A stretch of DNA of 64,000 nucleotides, from NCBI RefSeq assembly GCF_007352635.1, contig NZ_VKLU01000005.1, positions 635,940 through 699,939 on the forward strand. The letters run 5' to 3'. Shown one piece after another: positions 50,420 to 64,000 of the stretch. The stretch comes from Corallococcus sp. Z5C101001 (GTDB lineage Bacteria; Myxococcota; Myxococcia; Myxococcales; Myxococcaceae). The notes under the pieces were generated by a model. That model saw only the letters and a program-made list of their open reading frames with translations. It made no database searches and was not told the origin of the DNA. Numbering within the stretch: the stretch's first letter is position 1; each line of letters opens with the position of its first letter. The translations under genes and the position numbers were made by a program.

Positions 50420-51946
50420 TCACGGCATCTTCAGCGCGCGCAGCAGGCGTCCGCCGCCTGGCCCCGCCACGCGCAGCAGCAGCGTGCTGCCCCCAGGCGC
50501 GGCGCGGATGACCGCGGCCAGCTCCTTCGCGCTGGCGATGGGCTTGCGGTTCGCCTCCACCACCAGCATGCCTGGGATCAGCTGCGCGCGGTCCGCGGGC
50601 GAGCCCGGGACGATGTCGGTGATGAGCGCGCCAGAGCGCTCGGTGAAGCCCGCCTGGGAAGCGGTCCGCGCATCCAGGTCCTGGAGGGACACCCCCACGC
50701 GCCGCGAGCTGTCCTGCTCGTCCGTGACCTCCGGCTTCTTCTTGGACAGGCCCTCCAGGTCCGGCCGGGTGCCCATCGTCACCTTGACGTCCTGCTTCTT
50801 GCCATCGCGGTAGACCGTCAGCGTCGCGACGCTGTTCGGCTTCTTGAGCGCCACCGTGCGCGTGAGCTCGCTGTCGGAGCGCACCGTCTGCCCGTCGACC
50901 GCGACCACCACGTCGTCCGCCTTGAGGCCCGCCTTCGACGCTGGGGAGTCGGGGTTGATCTGCGTGAGGATGGCGCCCTCGTTCACCGGCAGCTTCAGCG
51001 CCTGCGCCAGGTCGCGGGTCAGGGGCTGGATGCCCACGCCCAGCCAGCCGCGCGTGACGGATCCGCTCTTCTCCAGCTGCGGAAGGAGCGCCTTGATGAG
51101 GTTGCTGGGCACGGAGAATCCAATGCCCGTGCCCCCGCCGACGATGGCGGTGTTGATGCCCACCACCTCGCCCTTCATGTTGAAGAGCGGGCCGCCCGAG
51201 TTGCCGGGGTTGATGGCCGCGTCCGTCTGGAGGAAATCGTCGTACGCGCTGGCGCCGATTTCACGGGCGCGCGCGGACAGGATGCCCACGCTCACGCTGG
51301 AGGCCAGACCGAAGGGGTTGCCAATCGCCAGCACCCAGTCGCCCACGCGCACCGCGTCCGAGTCGCCCAGCTTCACGGCGGGCAGCTGATCCACCTTCTC
51401 CTTGATCTTCACCACGGCCACGTCGGTGAGCGGGTCGCGCCCCACCACCTCGCCGGTGAACGAGCGACCGTCGTCCAGGCGGATGGTGATGGTGACCGCG
51501 TCCTCGATGACGTGGTTGTTCGTGAGCACCAGCCCCTTGGGGTCGATGATGAAGCCCGATCCGGCTCCCTGGCGGATCTGCTCCCGCTCGCTGCGGCCCC
51601 GGCTTCCTCCGCCCCGACCTCGGCTTCCGTTGCCCCCAAAGAAGCGGTCGAAGAGCGGGTTGTCCTCCATGCCCTCCGGCACTTCAGGACGGGCTTGCAC
51701 GTCCACGTTCACCACGGCGGACTTCACCGACTCCACCAGCGGCGCCAACGACGCCAGCGACTGGGCCTCGCGCGTGGCGGGTTGCAGGTTGCCAGCCGCC
51801 CCAGAGGCCGCCTGCTGCGTCTGCGGGGCGGAGGGCTTGGAAGCGGGCGCCTGCGCGAGGGCGAGCGTGGGTGACGCCAGCACCAGCACGGCGGCCACGA
51901 GCGTGCGACGGAACGGAGGGAGCGTGAGGGTCATGGGTTCTTTCAA
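50420..51946 (-). CDS. Periplasmic serine endoprotease DegP/HtrA (Do family) with two PDZ domains.
   Basis: A signal peptide is followed by the catalytic triad regions TNNHVIEDA (His), DVAVVKI (Asp) and GNSGGPLFN (Ser). Two PDZ-like segments follow. Confidence 0.85.
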   Translation of the reverse strand: MKEPMTLTLPPFRRTLVAAVLVLASPTLALAQAPASKPSAPQTQQAASGAAGNLQPATREAQSLASLAPLVESVKSAVVNVDVQARPEVPEGMEDNPLFDRFFGGNGSRGRGGGSRGRSEREQIRQGAGSGFIIDPKGLVLTNNHVIEDAVTITIRLDDGRSFTGEVVGRDPLTDVAVVKIKEKVDQLPAVKLGDSDAVRVGDWVLAIGNPFGLASSVSVGILSARAREIGASAYDDFLQTDAAINPGNSGGPLFNMKGEVVGINTAIVGGGTGIGFSVPSNLIKALLPQLEKSGSVTRGWLGVGIQPLTRDLAQALKLPVNEGAILTQINPDSPASKAGLKADDVVVAVDGQTVRSDSELTRTVALKKPNSVATLTVYRDGKKQDVKVTMGTRPDLEGLSKKKPEVTDEQDSSRRVGVSLQDLDARTASQAGFTERSGALITDIVPGSPADRAQLIPGMLVVEANRKPIASAKELAAVIRAAPGGSTLLLRVAGPGGGRLLRALKMP

Positions 51947-52036: not shown

Positions 52037-53665
52037 TCAACCGGGCTGGTACACCCGGTAGTCCAGCTCGGGGAACAGGTTGTCCCGCCCCTCCACGTGG
52101 GAGAGCCAGGACGCGTCGACCGTGCCCGCGCGCACCTGGTCGTGCAGTCGGAGGAAGCGTTGCAAATGCTCCTTCGTGCGACGCACGGCGTAGTCCACCA
52201 TGGTGCCGGTCTTCATGATGAAGGCCCAGTCGGAGGACTGCGCGAGGAGCAGCTCGCGCGCGGCCTGATTCAGCGCCCGGCGCGTCAGCGGCGGCGCGTC
52301 GGGAAAGTCCCGGGCCAGCTCCACCATCTGTCGCGCGCAGTGGTTCAGGTGGCGGTAGATCCAGTCGTTGGTCCCGTCCAGCCACATGTTCGCATAGCCG
52401 CCCGCGCCCCAGGACGACAGGGGCGGCGTGGCCACCTGGTTCTCCGGGTGCTCGCGCAGGTCATCCAGAGGGCTGATCAACTGGAGGCGGCTGGGGTTGC
52501 GCGCGGCCTGACGGATGAGGGCGTCGATGAAGTGCGGGCCTTCGAACCACCAGTGGCCGAAGAGCTCGGCGTCGTAGGGCGCGACGACCACCGGCTTGCG
52601 GCCGTTCATGCGGGACGCGAGGTGTTCGAACTGGCGCTCGCGATTGAACAGGAAGTTGCTCGCGTGCACCCAGGCGCGCTCGCGGGCCGCGGCCGGGTTG
52701 TAGGGCTGCTTGTCGTTCGTCTTGCCGGTGATGCGGAAGTACTTGAAGCCGGTGTTCTTGCGGTCGCCGGTGGGCTGGACGAAGGGCCGGATGTAGTCCT
52801 GGTCCAGGTCCCAGCCGATGTCCCGATAGAACTCGCGGTAGACGGGGTCGCCGGGGTAGCCGTGCTCGGTGCTCCACACCTGCTGGCTGCTCTCCGGATC
52901 GCGGGCGAAGGCGGCGACGCCCGGCTCGGTGAAGATGGGCGCGTAGGGGCCATGGAGCGGACGGGGCGAGGCGTCCGTGAGCGCGTGCGTGTCGACGAAG
53001 AAGTAGCGGATGCGCTCGGCGGCGAGGATGCGCTCCAGGCCCGGGTAGTAGCCGCACTCCGCCAGCCAGATGCCCGAGGGATCGCGGCCGAAGTTCTGGC
53101 GGTAGTGGTTCGCCGCCACCGTCACCTGGGCGCGCACGGCCTCGGGCGTCTGCTGCATCAGCGGCAGGAAGCCATGGGTCGCGTTGCAGGTGAGGATGTC
53201 CAGGTGGCCGGAGTCCTGGAGCCTGCGGAACGCGGCCACCAGGTCGCGCCGGTACTGGTTGTGGTACGCGAGGCGCAGCGATTCGAAGTGGTCGCGGTGG
53301 AAGACGGCCAGCGGATGGAAGGTGGCGTCATCCCGGGTGCGGTGCACCTCGCGGGCGCCGAGTTCGCAAAGCAGCTCCAACCGCCGGGCGTAGCGCTCCC
53401 GCAGCAGCTCGTCGTTGAGCATGGAGACGAGCGTGGGCGACAGCGTCATCGTCACGCGGAACGGGACGCGGTCCTCGACCAGCGCGTCGAACACGCGCAG
53501 CAGCGGCAGGTACGTCTCGGAGATGGCTTCGTAGAGCCAGTCCTCCTCGAGGAAGTCCTCGTACTCGGGGTGGCGGACGAACGGGAGGTGCGCGTGAAGG
53601 ACCAGCGCGAGGGAGCCCAGGCTCATAGGTCGGTCGAGTGGCCGTGCGGGTTCACTTACGTCCAC
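52037..53665 (-). CDS. Glycoside hydrolase family 57 1,4-alpha-glucan branching enzyme (GH57 plus C-terminal DUF1957).
   Basis: The N-terminus LALVLHAHLPFVRHPEYEDFLEEDWLYEAISETYLPLL is the GH57 signature. The catalytic region ...WLAECGY... and the C-terminal helical DUF1957 region are present. The start is either 53665 or an internal ATG (MSLGS). Confidence 0.8.
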   Translation of the reverse strand: MDVSEPARPLDRPMSLGSLALVLHAHLPFVRHPEYEDFLEEDWLYEAISETYLPLLRVFDALVEDRVPFRVTMTLSPTLVSMLNDELLRERYARRLELLCELGAREVHRTRDDATFHPLAVFHRDHFESLRLAYHNQYRRDLVAAFRRLQDSGHLDILTCNATHGFLPLMQQTPEAVRAQVTVAANHYRQNFGRDPSGIWLAECGYYPGLERILAAERIRYFFVDTHALTDASPRPLHGPYAPIFTEPGVAAFARDPESSQQVWSTEHGYPGDPVYREFYRDIGWDLDQDYIRPFVQPTGDRKNTGFKYFRITGKTNDKQPYNPAAARERAWVHASNFLFNRERQFEHLASRMNGRKPVVVAPYDAELFGHWWFEGPHFIDALIRQAARNPSRLQLISPLDDLREHPENQVATPPLSSWGAGGYANMWLDGTNDWIYRHLNHCARQMVELARDFPDAPPLTRRALNQAARELLLAQSSDWAFIMKTGTMVDYAVRRTKEHLQRFLRLHDQVRAGTVDASWLSHVEGRDNLFPELDYRVYQPG

Positions 53666-55991
53666 GGCGCGAAGACCGGGACCGGGAGGAGGACTTGGAG
53701 CCCGGGGACGCAGGCTCCGGCGGATTCTTCGGCGGCTCGGGAGGCGCGGACGACTTCGCGGTCGTGGGAGCCGCCTCCTTCACAGGCGCGGCACTCGGAG
53801 CCACGGGCGCTTCGCTTCGCGCGGGCGCGGCGCTCGAACTCCCTGGCGCCGGAGGAGCCCTTCGCGCCGCCTCGGCGGCCTCGCGTGCCTTGTCCAGGGC
53901 GCGCTGCTCGGACGCGGTGGGGCCTCGCGTGATGCTCAAGGCCCACGGGTCCCGAGGCGCCTCCGGCTCCGGGGCTGACACGGGCCCCGGCGAGCGTGCC
54001 TCGGCCCCGCTGACGGGGACAGGGCGCGCCAGCGGGAGGTCCCTCGCCTCGAGTGCCTCGCCCTGTGAAGGGGATGCGGACTCGGGTGCGCGTGGCGCGC
54101 TCGGAGTCCCGCTTGCCCCCGTCGCCCGCTCCACGGACAGGGACTGCTGATCCGAAGCGCCCGTCACCAGGGGCACGGCCTGGTATTGCTGATCCGACGC
54201 CCCCACCGCTCGATCCACGGACAGGTAGCGCTGCTCCGACGCCCCCACCGCGCGGGGAACGGTCAGATACCTTTGGTCCGAAGCCCCCGGTGCGCGCGGC
54301 ACCTCCAGATACTGCCGGTCCGAAGCCCCGGGCACGGCAGACACCGTGAGATAGCGCTGGTCCGAAGCACCCGGCGCCCGCGGGACATCGAGATACGCCT
54401 GGGCTCCCCGCCCCTCCACGTACCGCTGCTCGGAAGCCCCCGCGGCGCGAGGCACCTCCAGATAGCGGTACGCCGACACGCCTCCAGGAAGCAGCGTCTG
54501 CCCGTACCGCTGTTCCGAGGCACCGGCCGCACGAGCCACCTCCAGATACGGGTGGCGGGCCGGTGCTCCAGCGAGCTGGTCCGAAGCACCCGGCACTCGC
54601 TCCACGGACAGGTAGCGCTGATCCGACGCCCCTGGCGCACGCGACGGCGCCAGCACCTCTCCCCCGCCGAGCTTCGTCTCCCCCATCCGCGCCACGGCCT
54701 CGTACCGTTGGTCCGAAGCCCCCGGTGCACGCGGCACGTCGAGATGATCCGCTTCCGCGTAGCGCTGATCCGACGCGCCCGGGACTCGCGGCGCATCGAC
54801 ATAAGCTTCCGTGCGCTCGCGGTGGACCTCCGGCACGTCCATCACGCCCCCGCTCCCCGGCAGCGACACCCGGCGCCAGGTCACGTATTCGCGCTCCTGG
54901 ACACCTGGTACTCGCGTGGACGCCGCCTCCGGACCCGCCTCCGCGTGCTGTCGCTCCTCGACTGGCGGAGGCATGCGCAGGAACCGGATGGACGTATCCT
55001 CTGACGGCCCCGCGGGCGGCAGCGTGGCCCGGTTCGAGGACTGCCCGATGCGGCGCGACCGGCCATCGGCGCCGACGAAGTGCGCCTCCACCCGGTACGT
55101 GCGCCCGGGCGACAGGCCCTGAAGGTAGAAGCTGCGCGACTCCAGCGCGAAGTCCACCTCGCGCGACACGCCTTCACCGTCGAACACCTTCAATACGGCG
55201 CGAGGCGACGGCAAGCCGTCGAGCGCCCGACCCCGGGTCGCGTCGCTGAAGTCCCAGAAGGCGAACAGCGTGTGAGGATCCCGCGCGAGCAGCACCATCG
55301 CGTCGTCCTGGTAGTCCAGGGGCAACACGCCCAGGTGCTCTTCCCGCTCGGGCGACGCGTCAGCCGGCGGCAAGCGCGGCGACTGCTCCTCCAAGAGGTG
55401 GTGGCGGCGCGCCTCATCTGGCCCCGCCATCCTCGTCACGAAGAAGCCCTCCACCAGCGGCTCGGCCGCATGGGGCGGCTCGCTCGCGGGCGAAGCGGGC
55501 GCATCCGGAGCGGCGCCATCGCGAGCGCTCGACGGGCGCGGAGTCGCGACCTCGGGGCCGAGCGACAGCGTGTCCTCGTCATCCGGGTCCCGGCGAGCCT
55601 TCTCCCGGGCCGGGAACGTCACCACCCGCGCGGGCTGCGTCCTGGGCCCGCCACTGGGCTGCGTGATGGGCTCCTCGGAAAGTTCTCGTGCATGTGATCC
55701 CGCTGCCTCGGCCGGAGGCAGCGGCACGGACTCGGCAGGCGCGGCGTGCACGGGGCCGGAATCCTCCCGTCTGGAATCCAGCGTCCTCGCTTCACCCTTC
55801 ACGTCCCCCGAGCCACGCTGGGACGTGCCCAGCCCCGCCATGCGCGCGAGCCGCCCCAGGGCGGGAATGCGCTCGGCCAGCGAGGCGACGAACTCCCGCC
55901 CCCGGGACGTGCCGGACCCTTGCCGGAGGTATTTCCGGGCCAGTTCCCGCAGGTAGCTCACGGTGACGCCCTTCCGCTCATCCATGGACAC
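53652..55991 (-). CDS. DUF4912-domain protein with a long Pro/Ala/Ser-rich disordered region, about 14 degenerate PRAPGASDQRY-type repeats and a basic C-terminus.
   Basis: The DUF4912-like core is LPLDYQDDAMVLLARDPHTLFAFWDFSDATRGRALDG...AVLKVFDGEGVSREVDFALESRSFYLQGLSPGRTYRVEAHFVGADGRSRRIG. The gene's 3' end overlaps the GH57 start by about 14 nt, consistent with translational coupling. Confidence 0.6.
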   Translation of the reverse strand: MSMDERKGVTVSYLRELARKYLRQGSGTSRGREFVASLAERIPALGRLARMAGLGTSQRGSGDVKGEARTLDSRREDSGPVHAAPAESVPLPPAEAAGSHARELSEEPITQPSGGPRTQPARVVTFPAREKARRDPDDEDTLSLGPEVATPRPSSARDGAAPDAPASPASEPPHAAEPLVEGFFVTRMAGPDEARRHHLLEEQSPRLPPADASPEREEHLGVLPLDYQDDAMVLLARDPHTLFAFWDFSDATRGRALDGLPSPRAVLKVFDGEGVSREVDFALESRSFYLQGLSPGRTYRVEAHFVGADGRSRRIGQSSNRATLPPAGPSEDTSIRFLRMPPPVEERQHAEAGPEAASTRVPGVQEREYVTWRRVSLPGSGGVMDVPEVHRERTEAYVDAPRVPGASDQRYAEADHLDVPRAPGASDQRYEAVARMGETKLGGGEVLAPSRAPGASDQRYLSVERVPGASDQLAGAPARHPYLEVARAAGASEQRYGQTLLPGGVSAYRYLEVPRAAGASEQRYVEGRGAQAYLDVPRAPGASDQRYLTVSAVPGASDRQYLEVPRAPGASDQRYLTVPRAVGASEQRYLSVDRAVGASDQQYQAVPLVTGASDQQSLSVERATGASGTPSAPRAPESASPSQGEALEARDLPLARPVPVSGAEARSPGPVSAPEPEAPRDPWALSITRGPTASEQRALDKAREAAEAARRAPPAPGSSSAAPARSEAPVAPSAAPVKEAAPTTAKSSAPPEPPKNPPEPASPGSKSSSRSRSSRRGRK
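54110..54803. repeat. In-frame array of about 14 degenerate 13-14-aa repeats (consensus VPRAPGASDQRYLxV) within the DUF4912 protein gene.
   Basis: The units YVDAPRVPGASDQRY, LDVPRAPGASDQRY, LEVARAAGASEQRY, LEVPRAAGASEQRY, LDVPRAPGASDQRY, LEVPRAPGASDQRY, LTVPRAVGASEQRY, LSVDRAVGASDQQY and others are visible in the translation. Confidence 0.5.
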
Positions 55992-56119
55992 CTCGCCTCG
56001 TTATGTCGCGGCATACAGGGGGTCAACGCATCCGTCACGGGATGTGTTGGTCTGCCGACCCCGTTCTTCTCCGTCACGCCCGATGACACCTCCGCCTTGT
56101 CCAAGTATCCTGCGACCGC

Positions 56120-59100
56120 TTGAGTGACCTGCCCAGACTTCTCCTGTGCAGCTTTGACGTCATCCCCGGCCCGTCTGGCTCCTCACGCCGACTGACCGAG
56201 TATCTGAAGGCGTTGCCTGATCGCTTCTCCGTGGTGGTGCTGTCGGCGAAGACGCCCGACCACTCCCATATCGAGAAGTACCAGGGCGCCCGGCTGCTCC
56301 GGGTCCCGGTAGGCTCCGGGGACCTGGCCTCGCGCATCCAGTCCTTCGAACGGGCCGTGCGTCGGCAGCTGGAGAGCGAGGACTACGCCCTCGCCCACTT
56401 CACGGACCCCTTTGGCGGCTACGCGCTCTGCGAGCTGAAGGCGGACTACGGCTACCGCCTCATCTATGAGGCCCAGACGTTCCCGTCCCAGGAGCTGCGC
56501 TACACCCATCCGCAGACGGACGGGGACCGCCGCTTCCTGTCGAAGATCCGCCGGCAGGAGCTCTTCTGCCTGATGAACGCGGACCTCGTGGTCACCGGCT
56601 CGCAGACGACGCGCGCGTACATCCAGGGGCTGGGAGCGGCGGAGGACCAGCTGCGCATGCTGCGCGCGCCGGTGGACCTGCAACCGTACGACCCCGAGGT
56701 GCTCGGCGTCCCGGATGGGTCGCCCCTCCGGATGATGTACCTGGGCAGCCACGTGGGCTGGCAGGGCCTGCCCACCCTGCTGCGGGCCACCGCGCTCGCG
56801 GCCCAGCAGGTGGACGTGCGGTTGACGCTGGTGGGCGCGCACCATCCGGACTGGAAGCCCCACCTGGACGACCTGGTCAACGACCTGGGACTCAAGGAGA
56901 AGGTCGACTTCCAGCCGCCGGTCACGCACGACGACCTGGTGAAGGTGCTGGCGCTCGCGGACGTGGGCGTGCTGCCGCTGGACGACTCGGAGCGCAACCG
57001 GCTCCAGGGTGGACCGCTGGCCAAGGTCTCCGAGTATCTGGCCGCCGGACGGCCCGTCATCGCCGCGGACCTGCCCGTCACCCGTGAGCTGATTCCCAAG
57101 GACGCCGCGGTCTTCTTCCCACCCGGCGACAGCCGCGCCCTCTCCGAGCGCATCCTCGATCTGGCGCGCGACGTGCCTCGCCGCGTGGCGCTCGGACGGG
57201 CTGGGCGCGCGTTCGCGGAGAAGGTGCTGGACGCGCGCCTCATCCGGGGCCAGTTGCTGGACCTCTACGACTCGCTGCTGGAGAAGCGAGGGCACGTGCC
57301 GGTGGAGGCCTCCAGCGAACCGCCCGACGTCACGATGACGGGCACGCCCACGAACCGGCTCGCGAGCCTGGGCATGCCGGAGGCGTCGAAGCCCGCGCCG
57401 ATGCCCAAGGCCCCCGCGAAGCCCGCCGTTGAGGAAGCGGCGGCGCCCCCCGCGAAGGAAGGCGCGGAGGACCTGCCCCTGGTGATGGGGATGGCGCTGG
57501 ACGATGGGATGGACACGCGGCTCGTGAAGACCGAGCCGGACATGCGGCCCGACGAGGTCCCCATGGTGATGGGGCTGCCGCTCCGCGAGTCCGCCGCGAG
57601 CCCACCCGCCGCGGCGCCCGAACCCGCGTCCACGCCGACGTCCAAGACGACCGACGGGGCCGCGAGGAGCGCACTCCCGGTCCCTCCCGAGAAGGAGGAG
57701 CCCGAGCCCCTGGGCGGACGGATCGGCGACGCCCCCCAACCCACCGAGATGCTGACGCGTCCCGCCGCGAAGCCGCTCGCGGCGGGGGACGACGCACAGT
57801 CCTCCGACACGGGTGACGACAGCGCGGATGCGGCATCGTCCGGGGTGACGGTCGTGCGCCGGCCTTTCGGGGACGGCGAAGGCGACGCGCCCGCCTCTAC
57901 GGCCACCGTGCGCAAAGCGCCCGGAGACGCCGAGGAGTCGGCCCCGGCCGCCACACCCATCGTGCATCGACCGGCCGGAGATGATGTGGACGCCGCACCG
58001 GCGCCCACGCCCATCGTTCGCAGGCCCACGTCCCTGGACGACGACGAGAGCGCCGCACCAGCGCCCACGCCCATCGTCCGCAGGCCCACGTCCCTGGACG
58101 ACGACGAGAGCGCCGCACCGGCCCCGACGCCCGTCGTCCGCAGGCCCACCGCCCCGGATGACGACGAGCGCGTCTCGCCAGCGCCCACGCCTATCGTCCG
58201 CAGGCCTACGTCCCTGGACGACGACGAGAGCGCCTCACCAGCTCCGACGCCCGTCGTCCGCAGGCCTCCATCCCCGGACGACGAGCGCGCCTCACCAGCG
58301 CCCACGCCTATCGTCCGCAGGCCCGCCGACCCGGACGACGACGAGCGCGCCTCACCTGCGCCCACGCCCATCGTCCGCAGGCCCGCCGACCCGGACGACA
58401 ACGAGCGCGCCTCACCTGCGCCCACGCCCATCGTCCGCAGGCCCGCCGACCCGGACGACGACGAGCACGCCTCACCAGCGCCCACGCCCATCGTCCGCAG
58501 GCCCGCTCCTCCAGAGGAAGAGGACTCCGCGCCCGTCGTCCGCAAGTCCTCCTCCACGGAGGACGAGCCTTCCGCGTCCAGCGCACGCCGCCCCTCATCA
58601 CTCTCGGAGGACGAGGAGCGAGCCCCCACGCCCATCGTGCGCCGCGCCAGCGTCACCCGCGATGACGAGTCGCCCGCTCCGACGCCCATCGTGCGCCGGT
58701 CCTCCGTGCTGGCGGAGGACTCCCCGGAGCCACCGGCGCCCACGCCCATCGTCCCCATGCGGTCCGTGTTGAGCGGAGCCCGTAGCACCGGGGCCGGGCG
58801 GTCGACGCGGCCGAGCGCCACGCCGGATCAGGCCCCCTTCGAACCGCCTCGCCTCTCTCCCTCTCCCCTTCCCATGGCCGACGCGGACAAACCGCTCATC
58901 CGTGGCGGCCTCGTCGCGGATGCTGGCCGGCCCTCCTCCTCCCGTCCTCCGGTGCTCACGGAGTCCGACAAGCCGCCCCTCCGAGGGGGTCTCGCGCCGG
59001 ACGCGGACCGCCCACCGCAGCTGCCGCCCCGCGCCACCGCCCCGCCTCCCGTCCCCCGTCAGGGGCCGCCGCCACGGCTGCTGCCCACGCCGGATCCGCA

Positions 59101-59518
59101 GGCGAAGACACCACCCGTGCTGAGGCCCTCCACGCCCGCGCACGCCGACGACGAGCCGGAGGAGATCGCCGCCGACGAGGCCCAGTCCCTGGACGACGAC
59201 GTGAGCCACACGCCGTCGAACGCCAGCGCGGCGCTGGACGAGCCGGAGGAGATCGACAGCGACGAGGTCCACGACGCGGACTCGCTCGACATGGAGGACG
59301 CGGAGGCCGAAGACGCAGGGCCCGCGCCCGCGCCCCCTGGCTCCACGCTCAACCCGTGGTTCGCGCAGCTCGCGCACGGGTACTGCCCGCCCGAGGGCGC
59401 GCGCTTCGCCCGGCACACCCCGCCCACGAACTTCCCCGGGCGGGATCCGGATGAGGCCGCGTCCCCAGGGGCGACTCCCCCTGTCGGCCAGGGAGCGGTT
59501 CGCGGCAAGAACTCGTGA
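56120..59518 (+). CDS. Glycosyltransferase family 4 catalytic domain (about 390 aa) fused to a roughly 740-aa Pro/Asp/Ala-rich intrinsically disordered tail containing about 15 tandem 20-aa repeats.
   Basis: The N-terminal GT-B/GT4 features include MYLGSHVGWQGLPTLL..., the EX7E-like region (VLPLDDSERNRLQGGPLAKVSEYLAAGRPVIAAD) and the closing GRAFAEKVLDARLIRGQLLDLYDSLL. The tail repeats read PAPTPIVRRPTSLDDDESAA. The gene is divergent from the DUF4912/GH57 operon. Confidence 0.7.
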   Translation: MSDLPRLLLCSFDVIPGPSGSSRRLTEYLKALPDRFSVVVLSAKTPDHSHIEKYQGARLLRVPVGSGDLASRIQSFERAVRRQLESEDYALAHFTDPFGGYALCELKADYGYRLIYEAQTFPSQELRYTHPQTDGDRRFLSKIRRQELFCLMNADLVVTGSQTTRAYIQGLGAAEDQLRMLRAPVDLQPYDPEVLGVPDGSPLRMMYLGSHVGWQGLPTLLRATALAAQQVDVRLTLVGAHHPDWKPHLDDLVNDLGLKEKVDFQPPVTHDDLVKVLALADVGVLPLDDSERNRLQGGPLAKVSEYLAAGRPVIAADLPVTRELIPKDAAVFFPPGDSRALSERILDLARDVPRRVALGRAGRAFAEKVLDARLIRGQLLDLYDSLLEKRGHVPVEASSEPPDVTMTGTPTNRLASLGMPEASKPAPMPKAPAKPAVEEAAAPPAKEGAEDLPLVMGMALDDGMDTRLVKTEPDMRPDEVPMVMGLPLRESAASPPAAAPEPASTPTSKTTDGAARSALPVPPEKEEPEPLGGRIGDAPQPTEMLTRPAAKPLAAGDDAQSSDTGDDSADAASSGVTVVRRPFGDGEGDAPASTATVRKAPGDAEESAPAATPIVHRPAGDDVDAAPAPTPIVRRPTSLDDDESAAPAPTPIVRRPTSLDDDESAAPAPTPVVRRPTAPDDDERVSPAPTPIVRRPTSLDDDESASPAPTPVVRRPPSPDDERASPAPTPIVRRPADPDDDERASPAPTPIVRRPADPDDNERASPAPTPIVRRPADPDDDEHASPAPTPIVRRPAPPEEEDSAPVVRKSSSTEDEPSASSARRPSSLSEDEERAPTPIVRRASVTRDDESPAPTPIVRRSSVLAEDSPEPPAPTPIVPMRSVLSGARSTGAGRSTRPSATPDQAPFEPPRLSPSPLPMADADKPLIRGGLVADAGRPSSSRPPVLTESDKPPLRGGLAPDADRPPQLPPRATAPPPVPRQGPPPRLLPTPDPQAKTPPVLRPSTPAHADDEPEEIAADEAQSLDDDVSHTPSNASAALDEPEEIDSDEVHDADSLDMEDAEAEDAGPAPAPPGSTLNPWFAQLAHGYCPPEGARFARHTPPTNFPGRDPDEAASPGATPPVGQGAVRGKNS
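57900..58760. repeat. Tandem in-frame 60-nt repeats (about 15 copies, central ones near-identical) encoding P-A-P-T-P-I-V-R-R-P-[T/A]-[S/D]-[L/P]-D-D-D-E-[S/R]-A-[A/S].
   Basis: The unit ccagcgcccacgcccatcgtccgcaggcccacgtccctggacgacgacgagagcgccgca recurs with small substitutions (TSLDDDESA, TAPDDDERV, PSPDDERAS, ADPDDDERAS, ADPDDNERAS, ADPDDDEHAS). Confidence 0.6.
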
Positions 59519-59617: not shown

Positions 59618-62600
59618 ATGGAGCGTCGCGTCCTCATCGTCGAAAGCCAGAACGACTTCGCACTCAGCATGGCCTCCGTGCTCAAGAGCGCGGGCTACAA
59701 CACGGCCATGGCCACCACTGCGTCAGACGCGCAGCGGGAGCTGGAGAAACGCCGACCCGATCTGGTCGTCGTGCGCGCGGAGCTGCCGGACCAGTCCGGC
59801 TTCGCCCTCTGTGGTCAGATCAAGAAGGGCAAGTGGGGACAGAACCTCAAGGTCCTCCTCCTCTCCTCCGACTCTGGCGTGGAGGGGCTGAACAAGCACC
59901 GTGAGACGCCCGCCGCCGCAGATGGCTATCTCGTCATCCCGTTCGAGATGGGAGAGCTCGCGTCGATGAGCGCGGGCATCGTGCCGCCCGGCTCCGATGA
60001 GACGGACGCGGACCTGGACGCCGCGCTCTCGGGCGCCCCGCGGGAAGCCCCGCCCCCCATGCCCGGCGTGCGCACCGGCGCCCCGCCCAAGCTGCCCAAG
60101 CGCGAGCGCCGCAGCGCGATGACGGACGAGGACAAGTCCTTCATGGACCGGGCCTTCTCGTCCATCGCGGACCGCAAGGCGGAGCTCTTGGCGGAGTCCC
60201 GCCAGTTGAAGCGCCCGCCCCCGCGCCGCGAGCTGATGGGCACGCCCGAGGGGAAGATCCAGATCCTCCGGGACGAGCTGAAGACGCGTGAAGCGCAGCT
60301 CGCGCGCCTGTCGGAGATCTGGAGCGTCCGCGAGCGGGAGCTGCTGTCCGTCGAGGACCGCCTCCACGAGAAGGACGTGGAGCTGCAGGGCCTGAAGATG
60401 CAGGTGGATGACCTGCTGCGGCGCTTCAACGACGCCCAGCAGTCCATCGTCCAGAAGGAGCGCGAGCACGGCGCCACCGTGGACGACCTGCTCCTGCAGA
60501 AGTTCTCCTCGGAGAAGGACCTCATCGAGGTCGTCGCCTCCAAGGAGAAGGACATCAACGTCCTGCGCAAGGAGGTCAACCTCCGCGACGAGGAGCTGGC
60601 CCGGCGCGGCGCGGACCTGGAGAGCTGGCGCAACGAGTTCGACAAGCTGGAGAAGCACCTCGGCGTCGTCACGCTGGAGTTCGAGGTCAAGGAGCAGAAG
60701 CTCCAGGACACCGTCCGCGCCAACGAGGCGGACATCCTCCAGCTGCGCGAGCGCGGCGACCAGTTCGAGTCGGAGCTGGGCCGCACCGTCAGCGAGCGCG
60801 ACCAGCGCTACGCCGAGCTGGACGGCGAGCTCCAGGCCCTCCAGGAGCGCCTGAGCCAGACGGAGCAGGAGCGCGACGCCACCGTGCGCGGCCTGGAGAC
60901 CCGGGCCACCACGGCGGAGGAGCACGCCAGCCGCTCCGACGCGGAGATCGAGCGCCTCAACGCCGAGCGCGCCCAACTGGAGCAGCGCCTCACGCAGCAG
61001 GTGGCGGACCTGGAGTCGGACATCGCGCGCGTCACTGGCGAGCGCGACCAGCTGCGGCTGGACAAGGACGCCCTGGAGGCGGACCTCACCCAGCGCGTGG
61101 AGGAGCGGGACGCGAAGCTCTCCGCGCTCGACCGCGAGCTGCAGGAGGCCATCGCCCGCAACGAGAACAGCGAGGCGGAGCTCAACGCCACCATCCAGCA
61201 GCACCGCGAGCGCATCGGTGAGCTGGAGGGCGAGGTCGAAGCCGTCAAGACGCACCTGGAGGACCGCGAGTCGGAGCTCAACGCGGAGCTCCAGGCGCTC
61301 CAGCAGGCCAAGGACGCGCTGGAGCAGGACCTCACCAGCCAACTGGAGGACCTGCGCGCCGCGAAGGACGCCCTGGAGGCGGACCTCAACGGTCAGATTC
61401 AAGCGCTCAGCGAGCAGCTGGACGCCGCCCAGCGCCAGGGCGAGCAGCTCTCCGCGCGCGTCGCCTCCCTCGAGGACACCGTCGCCCAGCGCGACGGCAC
61501 CATCGAGGGCCTGCAGTCCGACGTCGCCGAGCGCGACTCGCGCATCTCCGAGCTGACCGGCAACCTGGAGGCCACCAGCCAGCAGCTCTCCGAGACGCAG
61601 GGCACGCTCTCCAGCACCGAAGCCACCCTCGCGGAGACGCGCGGCGAGCTCGAGGCCACCAGCCAGACCCTCGCGGACACCCAGGCGACGCTGGCCCGCA
61701 CCGAGGGCACGCTGTCGGAGACGCGCGGCGAGCTGGAGGCCACCAGCCAGACCCTCTCCGAGACGCAGGCGAACCTCGCGCGGACGGAGGAGACGCTCTC
61801 CACCACCCGCGGCGAGCTGGAGGCCACCAGCCAGACGCTGGCCACCACCGAGGCCACCCTCGCCCAGACGCAGGACACGCTGGCGCGCACGGAAGGCACC
61901 CTCGCGGAGACGCAGGGCACCCTCGCCAGCACCGAAGGCACGCTCGCGGAGACGCGCGGCGAGCTCGAGGCCACCAGCCAGACGCTCGCGGACACCCAGT
62001 CCCGGCTCGCGCAGACGGAGGAGACACTCTCCACCACGCGCGGTGAGCTGGAGGCCACCAGCCAGACCCTCTCCGACACGCAGGGCACGCTCGCCAACAC
62101 CGAGGGCACGCTCGCGGAGACGCGCGGCGAACTCGAGGCCACCAGTCAGTCGTTGACGGACACGCAGTCGCGGCTGGCGCAAACGGAGGCCACGCTCGCG
62201 TCCACCCAGGGCGAGCTGGAGGCCACCAGCCAGACGCTGGCCACCACCGAGGCCACCCTCGCCCAGACCCAGGACACGCTGGCGCGCACGGAAGGAGCCC
62301 TCGCGGAGACGCAGGGCACCCTCGCCAGCACCGAGGGCACGCTCGCGGAGACGCGCGGCGAACTCGAGGCCACCAGTCAGACGCTGACGCAGACCCAGGA
62401 CACCCTGGAGGCGACGCGCGGCGACCTGGCGAAGGTGACCACGCACCGCGATGAGCTGGACGCGGAGCTGAACGAGACGCGCGACATCCTCCAGGAGACC
62501 AACGGCCTCCTGGCGCGAACCACCGAGGAGCGCGACGCTCGCATCGCGGAGCTGAAGGCGCTCCACGAGGCGAAGGATTCGCTGGAGCAGGACCTCACGG

Positions 62601-64000
62601 GCCAGATTGGCCAGCTGCGCGCGGACCTGTCGGAGACGCAGGGCCTCTACGACGCCGAACGCGGCGCGCACGCGAAGCTCGCCGAAGAGACCACCGCGCA
62701 CATCAACGCCCTCACCGGCGAGCGCGACGGGCTGACCTCAGACCTCTCCGCCACGTCGCAGCAGTTGGCGGACACGCAGGGCCAGCTCGCCGGGACCCAG
62801 GACGCGCTGGCCCGCGAGGAGCAGGCCCACGCCCAGGCCCGCCAGGCCGCCGCCAACACCCAGGCGGAGCTGGAGCGCCAGCTCTCCGACTCCCAGGCCA
62901 ACGGCGAGGACCTGGCCGAACAGCTCATCGTCACCAAGCACGAGCTGGGCACTCGCGTGGCGGAAGTCACGCAGCTGTCCTCCACGCTCGCGCAGACGGA
63001 GGACGCGCGCCACCACCTGGAGGACCGCCTCCAGACGCTCACCCACGAGTCGCAGCGCCGTGAGGAGCTCCTCCAGAACGAGGTCGACACCAAGGGCAAG
63101 GAGCTGTCGGACACGCTGCGCAAGCTCACCCACGTGACGCAGGAGAAGATGCGTCAGGCGGAGGTGCTCAACCGCGAGGTCGCCACCCGCACCGAACAGG
63201 TGAAGCAGCTGGAAGGCCAGCTGGAGGCCCAGGCCGCCGAGTCCAAGAAGCAGGCAGACGCGCTGAACCAGCAGCTCTCGTCGGTGTCCGGCGAGCTGGA
63301 CGGGACGCGCAAGGCCGTCGCCGACCGCGACGCGCAGCTCCAGCACGCCGCGCAGCACCAGAAGAAGCTCACCAGCGAGCGCGACGGGCTGGCCGGACAG
63401 CTCCAGCAGGCCCAGGCCCAGGCCCAACAGCAGGCCCAGCAGGCCGCCGCCGCCGCCGCCGAGGCGAAGAAGCAGGCGGACGACCTGGCCGCGAAGCTGG
63501 CCAAGTCCGAGCAGCGCATCGCGCAGCTGGCGCAGGAGGCCCAGAAGTTCGCCGCCGACACCGACGCGAAGCTCAAGGACGCCCAGGCCCAGCTGCAGGC
63601 CCGCACCAAGAAGGCCCAGGACCTGGAGCTGGCGCTGGAGAACGCCCAGAGCACCCGGGCCCGCGCGGAGAAGGACCTCAACGCCCGCGTCGCCGCCGCG
63701 GAGACCAAGGCCAACGAGGCCGCCGCCCGGCTCGCCACCGCGCAGAAGGAGCGCAAGGACCTGGAGGCCCGTCAGGTCAAGGAGCTGGAGGACCTCAACG
63801 CCAAGCAGAAGGCCGAGCTGGAGCGCCGCGAGGCCATCAAGGCCCAGGAGGTCGCCCGCCTCCAGACCTCCGTCCAGGAGAAGAGCAAGGCGCTCAAGGT
63901 CGCGGAGCTGGAGCTGGCCCGCTTCAAGAGCAAGGCCCCCGCCCCGGCCGCCGCCCCCGCCGCGAAGGCCGCCGCCAAGCCCACCGAGGACGAGCACCTC
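59618..64000 (+). CDS. aglZ: AglZ-like gliding-motility scaffold: N-terminal FrzS/AglZ-type pseudo-receiver domain followed by a coiled-coil of more than 1300 residues. It is partial: no stop codon before the window end.
   Basis: MERRVLIVESQNDFALSMASVLKSAGYNTAMATTASDAQRELEKRRPDLVVVRAELPDQSGFALCGQIKK has a receiver fold lacking the canonical phospho-accepting Asp context. Continuous heptad-rich, myosin-tail-like sequence runs to the last codon of the window. The ORF is missing from the track because it has no stop. Confidence 0.6.
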   Translation, partial: MERRVLIVESQNDFALSMASVLKSAGYNTAMATTASDAQRELEKRRPDLVVVRAELPDQSGFALCGQIKKGKWGQNLKVLLLSSDSGVEGLNKHRETPAAADGYLVIPFEMGELASMSAGIVPPGSDETDADLDAALSGAPREAPPPMPGVRTGAPPKLPKRERRSAMTDEDKSFMDRAFSSIADRKAELLAESRQLKRPPPRRELMGTPEGKIQILRDELKTREAQLARLSEIWSVRERELLSVEDRLHEKDVELQGLKMQVDDLLRRFNDAQQSIVQKEREHGATVDDLLLQKFSSEKDLIEVVASKEKDINVLRKEVNLRDEELARRGADLESWRNEFDKLEKHLGVVTLEFEVKEQKLQDTVRANEADILQLRERGDQFESELGRTVSERDQRYAELDGELQALQERLSQTEQERDATVRGLETRATTAEEHASRSDAEIERLNAERAQLEQRLTQQVADLESDIARVTGERDQLRLDKDALEADLTQRVEERDAKLSALDRELQEAIARNENSEAELNATIQQHRERIGELEGEVEAVKTHLEDRESELNAELQALQQAKDALEQDLTSQLEDLRAAKDALEADLNGQIQALSEQLDAAQRQGEQLSARVASLEDTVAQRDGTIEGLQSDVAERDSRISELTGNLEATSQQLSETQGTLSSTEATLAETRGELEATSQTLADTQATLARTEGTLSETRGELEATSQTLSETQANLARTEETLSTTRGELEATSQTLATTEATLAQTQDTLARTEGTLAETQGTLASTEGTLAETRGELEATSQTLADTQSRLAQTEETLSTTRGELEATSQTLSDTQGTLANTEGTLAETRGELEATSQSLTDTQSRLAQTEATLASTQGELEATSQTLATTEATLAQTQDTLARTEGALAETQGTLASTEGTLAETRGELEATSQTLTQTQDTLEATRGDLAKVTTHRDELDAELNETRDILQETNGLLARTTEERDARIAELKALHEAKDSLEQDLTGQIGQLRADLSETQGLYDAERGAHAKLAEETTAHINALTGERDGLTSDLSATSQQLADTQGQLAGTQDALAREEQAHAQARQAAANTQAELERQLSDSQANGEDLAEQLIVTKHELGTRVAEVTQLSSTLAQTEDARHHLEDRLQTLTHESQRREELLQNEVDTKGKELSDTLRKLTHVTQEKMRQAEVLNREVATRTEQVKQLEGQLEAQAAESKKQADALNQQLSSVSGELDGTRKAVADRDAQLQHAAQHQKKLTSERDGLAGQLQQAQAQAQQQAQQAAAAAAEAKKQADDLAAKLAKSEQRIAQLAQEAQKFAADTDAKLKDAQAQLQARTKKAQDLELALENAQSTRARAEKDLNARVAAAETKANEAAARLATAQKERKDLEARQVKELEDLNAKQKAELERREAIKAQEVARLQTSVQEKSKALKVAELELARFKSKAPAPAAAPAAKAAAKPTEDEHL
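61560..62430. repeat. 21-nt periodic in-frame repeat array (about 40 heptads of type x-T-x-x-T-L-A/S, e.g. ETRGELE ATSQTLA DTQATLA RTEGTLS) inside the AglZ-like coiled coil.
   Basis: Nucleotide units such as gcggagacgcgcggcgagctcgaggccaccagccagacgctc recur many times. Thr/Leu positions are strictly phased. Confidence 0.6.

What the first reader, a model, noticed from the sequence alone, without database searches (positions are those of the whole stretch)
57290..59518. A 740-residue disordered tail with about 15 near-identical 60-nt tandem repeats fused to a glycosyltransferase
Past the GT4 fold, the protein is almost purely P/A/D/E/R/S/T. Its centre is a tandem array with consensus PAPTPIVRRP-[T/A]-[S/D]-[L/P]-DDDE-[S/R]-A-[A/S], and the central copies are near-identical at the nucleotide level. 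This indicates recent expansion by slippage or recombination, and the copy number is probably variable between strains. Each unit combines a basic IVRRP motif with an acidic DDDE patch, so the array is a multivalent, charge-patterned ligand. I do not know of GT4 enzymes with such tails. The array is also a likely site of assembly collapse or expansion.
Basis: seen in the sequence. Interest (0 to 1): 0.65.

Follow-up and report, generated by a model that had tools for sequence, protein, structure and literature searches.

The report
Repeat-expanded disordered tail on myxobacterial glycosyltransferase
A Corallococcus sugar-transferase enzyme carries a real 740-residue floppy tail whose centre is a recently expanded, strain-variable array of a short conserved peptide motif; relatives across the myxobacteria share such a tail, ending in a conserved peptide, but nobody has studied it.

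Summary
ORF 56120-59518 (+) encodes a GT4 glycosyltransferase (aa 1-392) fused in frame to a 740-aa Pro/Ala/Asp/Ser/Arg/Glu tail. AlphaFold gives the tail no structure. The 60-nt array is real: lag-60 self-match is 0.84, against 0.36 for codon shuffles. But it has 9 core units, not 15. These include two near-identical trios (92-97% nt); other core pairs are 80-87%. About 7 degenerate flanking units bring the total to 16.

The window is Corallococcus sp. Z5C101001. C. silvisoli c25j21 is 99.3% identical across the locus yet lacks exactly 177 nt (three units). Six of the gene's 7 substitutions lie in the array. M. xanthus strains also differ by whole units. 20 of 54 genome contigs end inside this gene.

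The tail is not a one-off. Many relatives with over 40% GT identity (all named ones Myxococcota) combine GT4, a disordered spacer and a conserved C-terminal peptide (PWFAQLAHGYCPPEG..F.R..PPT.FPGRD). The gene block GH57 branching enzyme, DUF4912, GT4-tail, AglZ is conserved. The repeat amplifies a conserved motif, [DE]EpP[AS]PTP[IV]V[RK]xP. Archangium lacks it.

Best reading: a multivalent tether, glycogenin-like in layout. Partner and sugar product are unknown.

The parts
56120..59518 (+). Complete CDS (TTG start, TGA stop), 1132 aa: GT4 glycosyltransferase with a disordered tail. Identical to TSC31627.1 / WP_143901476.1 of Corallococcus sp. Z5C101001.
56120..57295 (+). GT4 (GT-B, retaining-type) catalytic domain, aa 1-392.
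   Evidence: Pfam Glyco_transf_4 and Glycos_transf_1. 77-98% identity in 54 orthologous loci. A 517-aa relative modelled at pLDDT >90 over this domain. Closest PDB folds are GlgM, MshA and SPS.
57296..59515 (+). 740-aa intrinsically disordered tail, aa 393-1132.
   Evidence: composition; AF2 pLDDT <50 with no secondary structure; no Pfam or PDB hit; GC3 0.87 in frame
57338..57361 (+). Conserved linear motif TGTPTNRL (T405, G408, T409, P410, T411 and R413 are invariant among 42 orthologues).
57467..57589 (+). Pair of conserved motifs: EDLPLVMGMALDDGMDTRLVKTEPD and VPMVMGLPLRE. The 'PPVVMG' and 'KT[DE]P' cores are also seen in relatives with 45-60% GT identity.
   Evidence: (D7)
57845..58798 (+). 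Whole repeat zone, aa 576-893: 16 units built on x-T-P-[IV]-V-[RK]-x-P plus an acidic spacer. It ends with the conserved terminal unit PAPTPIVPMRS.
58004..58510 (+). Core tandem array. Eight 60-nt units and one 57-nt unit, followed by the motif half of the next unit. Type A is PTPIVRRPTSLDDDESAAPA (units 1, 2, 4). Type B is PTPIVRRPADPDDDERASPA (units 6, 7, 8).
58100..58276 (+). 177-nt (59-codon, three-unit) segment that is absent from the otherwise 99.3% identical C. silvisoli c25j21 locus.
58886..58990 (+). Second, looser repeat type: DKPxIRGG / RPPVL. It is expanded to many copies in Myxococcus and Pyxidicoccus orthologues.
59021..59080 (+). Conserved proline-rich motif LPPRAxxPPPVPRQxPP (L968 invariant).
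59147..59269 (+). Acidic segment with two copies of DEPEEIxxDE. Net charge per residue over aa 1010-1075 is -0.38.
   Evidence: (D5)
59348..59446 (+). Conserved C-terminal peptide LNPWFAQLAHGYCPPEGARFARHTPPTNFPGRD. This is the hallmark of the clade: it always lies 14-57 aa from the C-terminus in proteins of 447-1463 aa. It is predicted to form a short helix (PWFAQLA).
53652..55991 (-). Divergently transcribed DUF4912 protein (779 aa). It has its own array of about 12 (V/A)PRAPGAS(D/E)QRYL repeats. It is a conserved neighbour and a candidate partner.
52037..53665 (-). GH57-type 1,4-alpha-glucan branching enzyme; conserved neighbour.
59618..64000 (+). AglZ homologue (receiver domain plus a long coiled coil; it runs off the window). 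It starts 100 nt after the GT4 stop on the same strand and is a conserved neighbour even in distant Myxococcota MAGs.

Best explanation
The region is the translated, intrinsically disordered C-terminal tail of a cytoplasmic GT4 glycosyltransferase that is conserved in the family Myxococcaceae and its relatives.

Layout. The ancestral layout, seen across the clade, has three parts: a catalytic domain, a flexible spacer of very variable length that carries a few short linear motifs, and a conserved peptide of about 33 residues near the C-terminus.

Origin of the array. In the Myxococcaceae, one motif in the spacer ([D/E]-E-p-P-[A/S]-P-T-P-[I/V]-V-[R/K]-x-P) has been amplified into an in-frame tandem array. 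Unequal recombination, slippage and gene conversion keep changing the array. In this strain it has reached 16 units, with two young trios.

Proposed mechanism (inferred, not shown). The tail acts as a multivalent tether. The repeated motif supplies many equivalent docking sites, or modification sites, for one partner. The C-terminal peptide docks a second partner, or folds back on the enzyme. Spacer length sets the reach. This is the layout by which glycogenin uses a variable linker and a C-terminal peptide to hold glycogen synthase.

Likely setting. The conserved neighbours are a GH57 branching enzyme and a DUF4912 protein. They point to branched alpha-glucan metabolism as the likeliest pathway and to those proteins, or the co-oriented AglZ, as candidate partners.
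For: Shown:
- Single ORF, GT4 domains, disordered tail.
- The fused ORF is conserved in 54 loci, with complete proteins of 611-1485 aa.
- 42-orthologue alignment: the invariant tail columns fall only in short motifs and in the C-terminal peptide W1080-R1108.
- The C-terminal peptide is found in about 50 of the top ~80 50%-identity representatives. It always lies 14-57 aa from the end, whatever the protein length (447-1463 aa), and is absent below ~40% GT identity.
- The motif T-P-[IV]-V-[RK]-x-P, preceded by acidic residues and Pro, is conserved in Corallococcus, Myxococcus/Pyxidicoccus, Citreicoccus and Hyalangium. Unit length and spacer sequence differ between them.
- Within the window's core units, motif codons 1-8 vary almost only synonymously (one I/V change), while spacer codons 9-18 vary in amino acid. 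This indicates selection on the motif.
- Copy-number change between near-identical strains, with substitutions clustered in the array.
- The block GH57-BE / DUF4912 <> GT4-tail / AglZ is present in every locus with enough flank, and in two MAGs with only 45-53% GT identity.

From the literature:
- Glycogenin has a catalytic domain, a variable linker and a C-terminal glycogen-synthase-binding peptide, and linker length governs particle size (PMC9188544).
- GT4 genes nested with GH57 genes are uncharacterised and have been speculated to be glucan synthases (PMC11046441).
Against: - No binding partner, sugar donor or acceptor has been demonstrated.
- The GT4 domain resembles GlgM, MshA and SPS about equally and reaches no NCBIfam cut-off, so the 'alpha-glucan' assignment rests on gene neighbourhood only.
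- Archangium, Vitiosangium and Cystobacter orthologues lack the PTPIVR array altogether, so the array is dispensable for the ancestral function.
- AF2 gives only modest confidence (block mean 67) for the C-terminal helix and does not show where it docks.
- The exact copy number in this draft assembly could not be checked against reads.
- The search for the C-terminal peptide in other protein architectures was uninformative: only 8 candidates, all fragments.
Confidence: 0.5

Rival explanations
1. Pure entropic spacer. Only the length and flexibility of the tail matter. The repeats are neutral filler produced by replication slippage in GC-rich, Pro/Ala-coding DNA, and the motif has no binding function.
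For: Tail length varies about 20-fold across the clade (447-1463 aa proteins). Archangium orthologues do without the array. Copy number changes between near-identical strains with no other change.
Against: The core T-P-[IV]-V-[RK]-x-P plus upstream acidic residues and Pro is conserved across genera whose spacers and unit lengths differ. Within the array, motif codons change synonymously while spacer codons change amino acids. Neutral filler would not keep Thr-Pro in every one of the 131 regex-selected motif instances outside Archangium, nor the unconstrained flanking positions.
Confidence: 0.2
2. Multisite phosphorylation or phospho-docking array. Each unit offers a Thr-Pro site (T-P-x-x-[R/K], with a hydrophobic residue at +3) for one of the many myxobacterial Ser/Thr kinases. 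This would create graded regulation of the enzyme or docking sites for FHA-domain proteins.
For: Thr and Pro are present in all regex-selected motif instances, with [IV] at +2 and +3 and [RK] at +4. The resemblance to proline-directed kinase and FHA (pT-x-x-[ILV]) consensus patterns comes from my own knowledge and is a lead only.
Against: There are no phosphoproteomic data. No kinase, phosphatase or FHA gene lies in the conserved four-gene block. The pattern match is short and could be chance.
Confidence: 0.15
3. Assembly artefact. The repeat count, or the fusion of tail to enzyme, was produced by mis-assembly of short reads.
For: The array breaks many assemblies: 20 of 54 contigs end inside the gene. 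The two closest strains differ by exactly three units, which could be a collapse in one of them. No reads were available.
Against: The fused ORF with an array and the same C-terminal peptide occurs in complete chromosomes: C. coralloides KYC2213, C. exercitus SDU142, Myxococcus sp. Y35 and M. xanthus DK1622. Units carry distinguishing substitutions in an ordered A-A-x-A-x-B-B-B pattern, and the frame is kept throughout. The tail and array are therefore real. Only the exact number (9 core units) is unverified.
Confidence: 0.05

Closest known systems
Glycogenin (eukaryotic GT8 glycogen primer) with its variable linker and C-terminal glycogen-synthase-binding peptide (GN34)
   Same: N-terminal glycosyltransferase domain. 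A linker that varies in sequence and length between species. A short conserved peptide at the C-terminus. A setting in glucan metabolism (here inferred from the GH57 branching-enzyme neighbour). For glycogenin see PMC9188544; for this family.
   Different: The catalytic fold is GT4/GT-B, not GT8/GT-A. There is no sequence similarity in the peptide. Self-glucosylation and synthase binding are untested. The linker here carries amplified motif arrays and reaches more than 1000 aa. This is an analogy of layout, not membership.
GT4 alpha-glucan-related enzymes (mycobacterial GlgM maltose-1-phosphate synthase; uncharacterised GT4 genes nested with GH57 genes in archaea and bacteria)
   Same: GT4 fold. 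GlgM (6tvp) is the top Foldseek hit. The gene lies adjacent to a GH57 branching-enzyme gene, an arrangement the review PMC11046441 notes as unexplained.
   Different: Only about 18% identity to GlgM. MshA and SPS score almost the same. No NCBIfam equivalog is reached. None of the 31-36%-identity relatives whose neighbourhoods were examined has the GH57, DUF4912 or AglZ neighbours, and none below about 40% identity has the C-terminal peptide.
In-frame variable-number tandem repeats in bacterial proteins (for example Pro-rich linker repeats of surface or scaffold proteins)
   Same: The unit length is a multiple of three. There is concerted evolution of units, strain-to-strain copy-number polymorphism, and breakage of short-read assemblies.
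   Different: The repeats sit on a cytoplasmic enzyme with no signal peptide or membrane segment, rather than on a surface antigen. The repeat preserves a specific motif that is conserved across genera.
M. xanthus DK1622 orthologue Q1D822 / ABF86636.1 (gene next to aglZ, MXAN_2991)
   Same: Same gene in the same four-gene block, with the same tail plan: TP[IV]V[KR] repeats, the LPPR motif, the acidic segment and the C-terminal peptide.
   Different: Its units are PTPIVKAP or TPVVRSP with Ser-rich rather than DDDE spacers. It is 1030 aa long. No publication on it was found in the searchable library.

Membership tests
CAZy GT4 / Pfam Glyco_transf_4 + Glycos_transf_1 (GT-B retaining glycosyltransferases) | Both Rossmann-like halves match the family profiles above the curated cut-offs | tested here: met
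   PF13439 41.7 bits (cut-off 28.5), PF00534 56 bits (26.4), PF13692 66.4 bits (27)
CAZy GT4 / Pfam Glyco_transf_4 + Glycos_transf_1 (GT-B retaining glycosyltransferases) | GT-B fold | tested here: met
   Model of a 517-aa relative has pLDDT >90 over aa 1-390. Foldseek probability 1.00 to GlgM, MshA, SPS, BshA and WaaG.
Named GT4 equivalogs (GlgM, MshA, BshA, EpsE, WcaI, PEP-CTERM stp3 and others) | Score at or above the NCBIfam trusted cut-off | tested here: not met
   Best hit is TIGR04063 at 54.9 bits against a cut-off of 442. All others are far below their cut-offs.
Glycogenin-type tethered primer (functional analogy) | Catalytic domain, then a linker variable in length and sequence, then a conserved C-terminal peptide | tested here: met
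Glycogenin-type tethered primer (functional analogy) | GT8 / GT-A catalytic fold with a self-glucosylated Tyr | tested here: not met
   The domain is GT4 / GT-B. Self-glucosylation is not testable here.
Glycogenin-type tethered primer (functional analogy) | The C-terminal peptide binds the chain-elongating synthase | not testable with these tools
   There is no multimer prediction or interaction data. AF2 monomer shows only a short helix at modest confidence.
In-frame VNTR / concerted-evolution repeat array | Head-to-tail units whose length is a multiple of 3, far more self-similar than chance | tested here: met
   Period 60, lag-60 match 0.836 against 0.363 +/- 0.021
In-frame VNTR / concerted-evolution repeat array | Copy number differs between closely related strains by whole units | tested here: met
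   177-nt / 3-unit difference from C. silvisoli c25j21 at 99.3% locus identity. M. xanthus strains differ by whole units. Caveat: these are assemblies, not reads.
Intrinsically disordered region carrying short linear motifs | Low-complexity composition, no predicted structure, and conservation confined to short islands | tested here: met
Any curated repeat or domain family for the tail (Pfam-A) | Profile match in aa 393-1132 | tested here: not met
   0 families at E <= 10. 0 PDB sequences at E <= 10 for the C-terminal 73 aa.

The most novel reading that the evidence does not exclude
This GT4 clade would be a bacterial counterpart of the glycogenin/scaffold principle. An enzyme would organise a cytoplasmic polysaccharide-synthesis assembly through a long disordered, multivalent tail. 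The amplified PTPIVR/acidic units and the equally repeat-rich DUF4912 neighbour (GAS[D/E]QRY array, found in the same lineages) would act as the two multivalent partners, possibly forming a condensate. The strictly conserved linkage to aglZ would couple this assembly spatially to the gliding-motility machinery, for example by supplying polysaccharide at focal adhesion sites.
Probability: 0.12. Interest if true: 0.85.

Novelty: new variant of a known kind. Interest (0 to 1): 0.5.

Why it matters
If the tether reading is right, myxobacteria have a cytoplasmic glycosyltransferase whose reach and valency are tuned by a fast-evolving repeat array. It would also be anchored by a conserved C-terminal peptide. 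As far as I know, this design has been described for eukaryotic glycogenin but not for bacterial glucan enzymes.

The gene sits immediately upstream of aglZ, a well-studied motility gene, in every genome examined. It lies beside a GH57 branching enzyme and an unstudied DUF4912 protein. No paper on it was found. It is therefore a cheap, well-defined target in the M. xanthus model: delete the array, delete the peptide, or pull down partners.

There are two practical points. The array is a natural strain-typing marker. It is also a recurrent break point in short-read myxobacterial assemblies, so many database entries for this protein are truncated.

Tried and rejected
- Literature. Searches for DUF4912, MXAN_2989/2990/2992/2993, Q1D822/ABF86636/AAR39425/WP_020478600, and aglZ + glycosyltransferase + slime found nothing on this gene. 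The original aglZ paper is not held.
- C-terminal peptide in other architectures. The word-index search returned only 8 short fragments of the same gene, so it was uninformative.
- Pfam and PDB sequence searches with the tail and with the C-terminal peptide gave no hits.
- AF2 of the full 1132-aa protein gave a poor model of the N-terminal half of the enzyme (mean pLDDT 43.9). It was useful only to show that the tail is unstructured. A shorter relative gave a good enzyme model but could not show where the C-terminal helix docks.
A profile search against the PDB gave only a weak FN3-like signal, E 0.0026.
- Other strands and frames. ORFs overlapping the array (57265-58821 on the minus strand, 57981-58772 on the plus strand) were rejected as coding. 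GC3 is highest only in the GT4 frame, and the orthologues conserve that frame.
- Contingency on/off switch: rejected, because the 60- and 57-nt units never break the frame.
- Co-variation of the DUF4912 and GT4 array sizes. Both arrays occur in Myxococcaceae and not in Archangium, but the counts do not track each other within genera and the pattern is confounded by phylogeny.
- Relatives with 31-36% GT identity were checked for the neighbourhood and lack it.


Full report
**1. What is there**

The stretch 57290-59518 lies inside one uninterrupted ORF, 56120-59518 on the + strand (TTG start, TGA stop, 1132 aa). Residues 19-364 match the two halves of the GT4 glycosyltransferase fold above Pfam's cut-offs. 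The remaining 740 residues are 20% Pro, 15% Ala, 10% Asp, 9% Ser, 8% Arg and 7% Glu. They match no Pfam family and no PDB sequence.

AlphaFold2, run with a 42-orthologue alignment, gives pLDDT below 50 and no secondary structure from residue 391 to the end. The one exception is a seven-residue helix at 1079-1085. Third-position G+C is 0.87 in this frame across the tail, as expected for a translated frame in this 72% G+C genome. The overlapping ORFs in other frames do not have that property.

The protein is identical to TSC31627.1 of Corallococcus sp. Z5C101001. RefSeq's alternative start lies 31 codons downstream, but it removes residues that are conserved in orthologues.

**2. The repeat**

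Tandem Repeats Finder reports period 60 at 57991-58506, 8.6 copies and 87% matches. The gap-free repeat finder puts 9 copies in register, spaced 60 nt apart, with one spaced 57 nt. Self-identity at lag 60 is 0.836 in the core. In 1000 codon shuffles it is 0.363 +/- 0.021, with a maximum of 0.43.

At protein level 16 units can be recognised between residues 576 and 893. They are not all alike:
- Units 1, 2 and 4 (PTPIVRRPTSLDDDESAAPA) are 92-95% identical in DNA.
- Units 6, 7 and 8 (PTPIVRRPADPDDDERASPA) are 95-97% identical.
- The other measured core pairs are 80-87% identical.
- The two downstream flanking units compared are only 50-67% identical to the core.

'About 15 near-identical' should read '9 core units including two young trios, plus about 7 degenerate units'.

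Within the core, the first eight codons (PTPIVRRP) differ almost only synonymously (CCC/CCG, CCC/CCT, GTC/GTT, CCC/CCT), with one Ile/Val change. The spacer codons differ in amino acid. That is the signature of selection on the motif.

**3. Is it recent and variable?**

Yes, as far as assemblies can show. The orthologue in C. silvisoli c25j21 (P0135) is 100% identical in protein outside the array. It lacks exactly 59 residues, which is three units. At DNA level the 14-kb locus is 99.3% identical, and the gap is 177 nt (58100-58276). Of the 7 substitutions in the 3.4-kb gene, 6 lie inside the ~500-nt array. This pattern fits unequal recombination and gene conversion between units.

M. xanthus strains differ from each other by one 25-residue or one 18-residue unit. 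Two M. stipitatus entries are 1265 and 1590 aa long. Other Corallococcus species carry only 4-6 copies of the motif, in shorter units of 15-18 residues, so this strain's 20-residue units expanded independently.

In 20 of 54 orthologous loci from the genome collection, the contig ends inside this gene. The prediction that the array breaks assemblies is therefore borne out. I could not check the copy number in this draft assembly against reads.

**4. The tail is a family trait, not an oddity of this strain**

All 54 loci (Corallococcus, Myxococcus, Pyxidicoccus, Citreicoccus, Hyalangium, Vitiosangium, Archangium and MAGs) encode the enzyme fused to a tail. Complete proteins range from 611 to 1485 aa, while the catalytic domain stays 77-98% identical.

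A full HMMER scan of 1.84 billion representatives with the catalytic domain alone found 228 representatives at E < 1e-30. Nearly all full-length representatives with more than about 45% identity carry a C-terminal extension. All named members are Myxococcota.

In a 42-sequence alignment the invariant tail columns are confined to short islands:
- TGTPTxR
- two PxVMG...L / KTEPD motifs
- LPPR
- two DEPEEI motifs
- the block W1080-F-A-Q-x-A-H-G-Y-C-P-P-x-G-x-x-F-x-R-x-x-P-P-T-x-x-P-G-R1108

That last peptide occurs in about 50 of the top ~80 representatives. It always lies 14-57 residues from the C-terminus, whether the protein has 447 or 1463 residues. It is absent from all representatives below ~40% identity.

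A 517-residue relative modelled well: pLDDT above 90 for residues 1-390, a tail below 50, and a helix on PWLAQLVH at modest confidence.

The ancestral plan is therefore an enzyme, a flexible spacer of arbitrary length with a few motifs, and a conserved C-terminal peptide.

**5. What the repeat amplifies**

I collected every T-P-[IVL]-[IVT]-[RKHP] site in the tails and aligned their surroundings. The same extended motif appears in four groups: [D/E]-E-p-P-[A/S]-P-T-P-[I/V]-V-[R/K]-x-P. The counts are 35 instances in 5 Corallococcus proteins, 75 in 8 Myxococcus/Pyxidicoccus, 7 in Citreicoccus and 14 in Hyalangium-like proteins.

What follows the motif differs between groups: DDDE or EEE in Corallococcus, APLPLDE or Ser-rich in Myxococcus. 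Six Archangium/Vitiosangium proteins have no true instance; the single regex hit there does not fit the extended motif.

The array always ends with a variant unit, PAPTPIVP(M/A)RS. The conserved entity, however, is the Pro-Thr-Pro-Ile-Val-Arg/Lys core preceded by acidic residues, not a fixed charge pair.

**6. Genomic setting**

The gene is divergent from a DUF4912 gene (53652-55991, minus strand), which is followed by a GH57 1,4-alpha-glucan branching enzyme (52037-53665) and an HtrA protease. It is followed 100 nt downstream, on the same strand, by a receiver-domain/coiled-coil protein. That protein is the AglZ homologue; AglZ is MXAN_2991 in M. xanthus (PMC4546325).

The order HtrA / GH57 / DUF4912 <> GT4-tail / AglZ is present in every locus with enough flank. 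In two Myxococcota MAGs whose GT domain is only 45-53% identical, the core block GH57 / DUF4912 <> GT4-tail / AglZ is kept, while the gene beyond GH57 is a TPR protein. There the AglZ homologue is 43% identical over 1221 residues. Relatives at 31-36% identity have none of these neighbours.

The closest folds in the PDB are GlgM (maltose-1-phosphate synthase), MshA and sucrose-phosphate synthase, with nearly equal scores. No NCBIfam equivalog is reached. A recent review notes that GT4 genes nested with GH57 genes are uncharacterised and may be glucan synthases (PMC11046441). The link to alpha-glucan metabolism is therefore an inference from neighbourhood, not from the enzyme itself.

**7. How it most likely works**

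Shown:
- The tail is translated, disordered and conserved in plan.
- It carries conserved short motifs and a conserved terminal peptide.
- The array multiplies one of those motifs and turns over quickly.

Inferred: the tail is a multivalent tether. Many equivalent motif copies would give avidity for one partner, or many sites for one modifying enzyme. The C-terminal peptide would engage a second partner or the enzyme itself, and the spacer length would set the reach.

The nearest functional analogue is glycogenin. There a variable linker joins the catalytic domain to a C-terminal peptide that holds glycogen synthase, and linker length controls particle size (PMC9188544). This is an analogy of layout only, because the catalytic folds differ (GT4 against GT8).

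Candidate partners are the products of the conserved neighbours. The DUF4912 protein has a weakly FN3-like core and its own ~12-copy repeat. That repeat occurs in the same lineages as the GT4 array and is absent in Archangium, but this co-distribution is confounded by phylogeny.

I put 0.5 on the multivalent-tether reading. The rivals are:
- a pure entropic spacer (0.2), which is weakened by motif conservation;
- a multisite Thr-Pro phosphorylation or FHA-docking array (0.15), which rests only on a pattern resemblance from memory;
- an assembly artefact (0.05), which is excluded for the existence of the tail and array but not for the exact count.

**8. Novelty and verdict**

Repeat-bearing disordered linkers and in-frame VNTRs are known kinds. 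What is not described, as far as the searchable literature shows, has three elements:
- a Myxococcota-wide GT4 clade built as enzyme + spacer + conserved C-terminal peptide;
- its fixed position between a GH57/DUF4912 pair and aglZ;
- the lineage-specific amplification of one motif.

I rate it a new variant of a known kind, with interest 0.5. It is real, cleanly delimited and cheaply testable in a model organism, but its function is still inferential.

Noticed in passing
window 53652-55991 (-), repeats about 54117-54800; TRF rows 54188-54396: The divergent DUF4912 gene has its own in-frame array: about 12 copies of (V/A)PRAPGAS(D/E)QRYL with a 42-nt period. Orthologues have 10-14 copies in Corallococcus, 2-8 in Myxococcus/Pyxidicoccus and 0 in most Archangium-group loci (a few have 1-3). 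This is the same phyletic pattern as the GT4 PTPIVR array. The DUF4912 core shows weak FN3-like similarity (E 0.0026).
   Followed up: partly
window 59618-64000 (+), repeats 61558-62385: The downstream AglZ homologue (receiver domain plus coiled coil; it runs off the window) contains nested 21/42/84/168/399-nt tandem repeats that encode TLAETRGELEATSQ-type heptad units. The 399-nt period has 1.9 copies at 88% identity. Three adjacent genes therefore all carry in-frame arrays.
   Followed up: partly
loci L003, L005-L011, L015, L016, L019, L021, L024, L027-L029, L036, L047, L052: 20 of 54 genome contigs end inside the GT4 tail. As a result, many database entries for this protein are 'partial'. 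L051 has a 319-aa truncated ORF, and P0310 appears frameshifted in the tail.
   Followed up: partly
window 56120-56212: Start-codon disagreement. GenBank TSC31627.1 uses the TTG at 56120 (1132 aa). RefSeq WP_370456574.1 starts 31 codons later (1101 aa). Residues 16-31 are conserved among orthologues and belong to the first strand and helix of the fold, so the longer form is more likely. A sigma-70-like site at 56083-56111 ends only 8 nt before the TTG, which would imply a nearly leaderless mRNA if it is used.
   Followed up: partly
window 58886-58990 and orthologues L013, L014, L022, L025, L054: A second repeat type occurs in the tail (DKPPIRGG / ERPPPVLRP / LPPVVR). It has two copies here but is independently expanded to many copies in Myxococcus and Pyxidicoccus, for example the 'SERPSARGTPVPEPERPRGT' arrays in L014. 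Different lineages thus amplify different parts of the same tail.
   Followed up: no
window 47758-49683 (+) and 50420-51946 (-): The wider neighbourhood includes a HAMP-GAF-GGDEF diguanylate cyclase and an HtrA/DegP protease. The protease is part of the conserved block in the 54 genome loci (it is replaced by a TPR protein in the two distant MAGs). A GDSL lipase lies between them.
   Followed up: no
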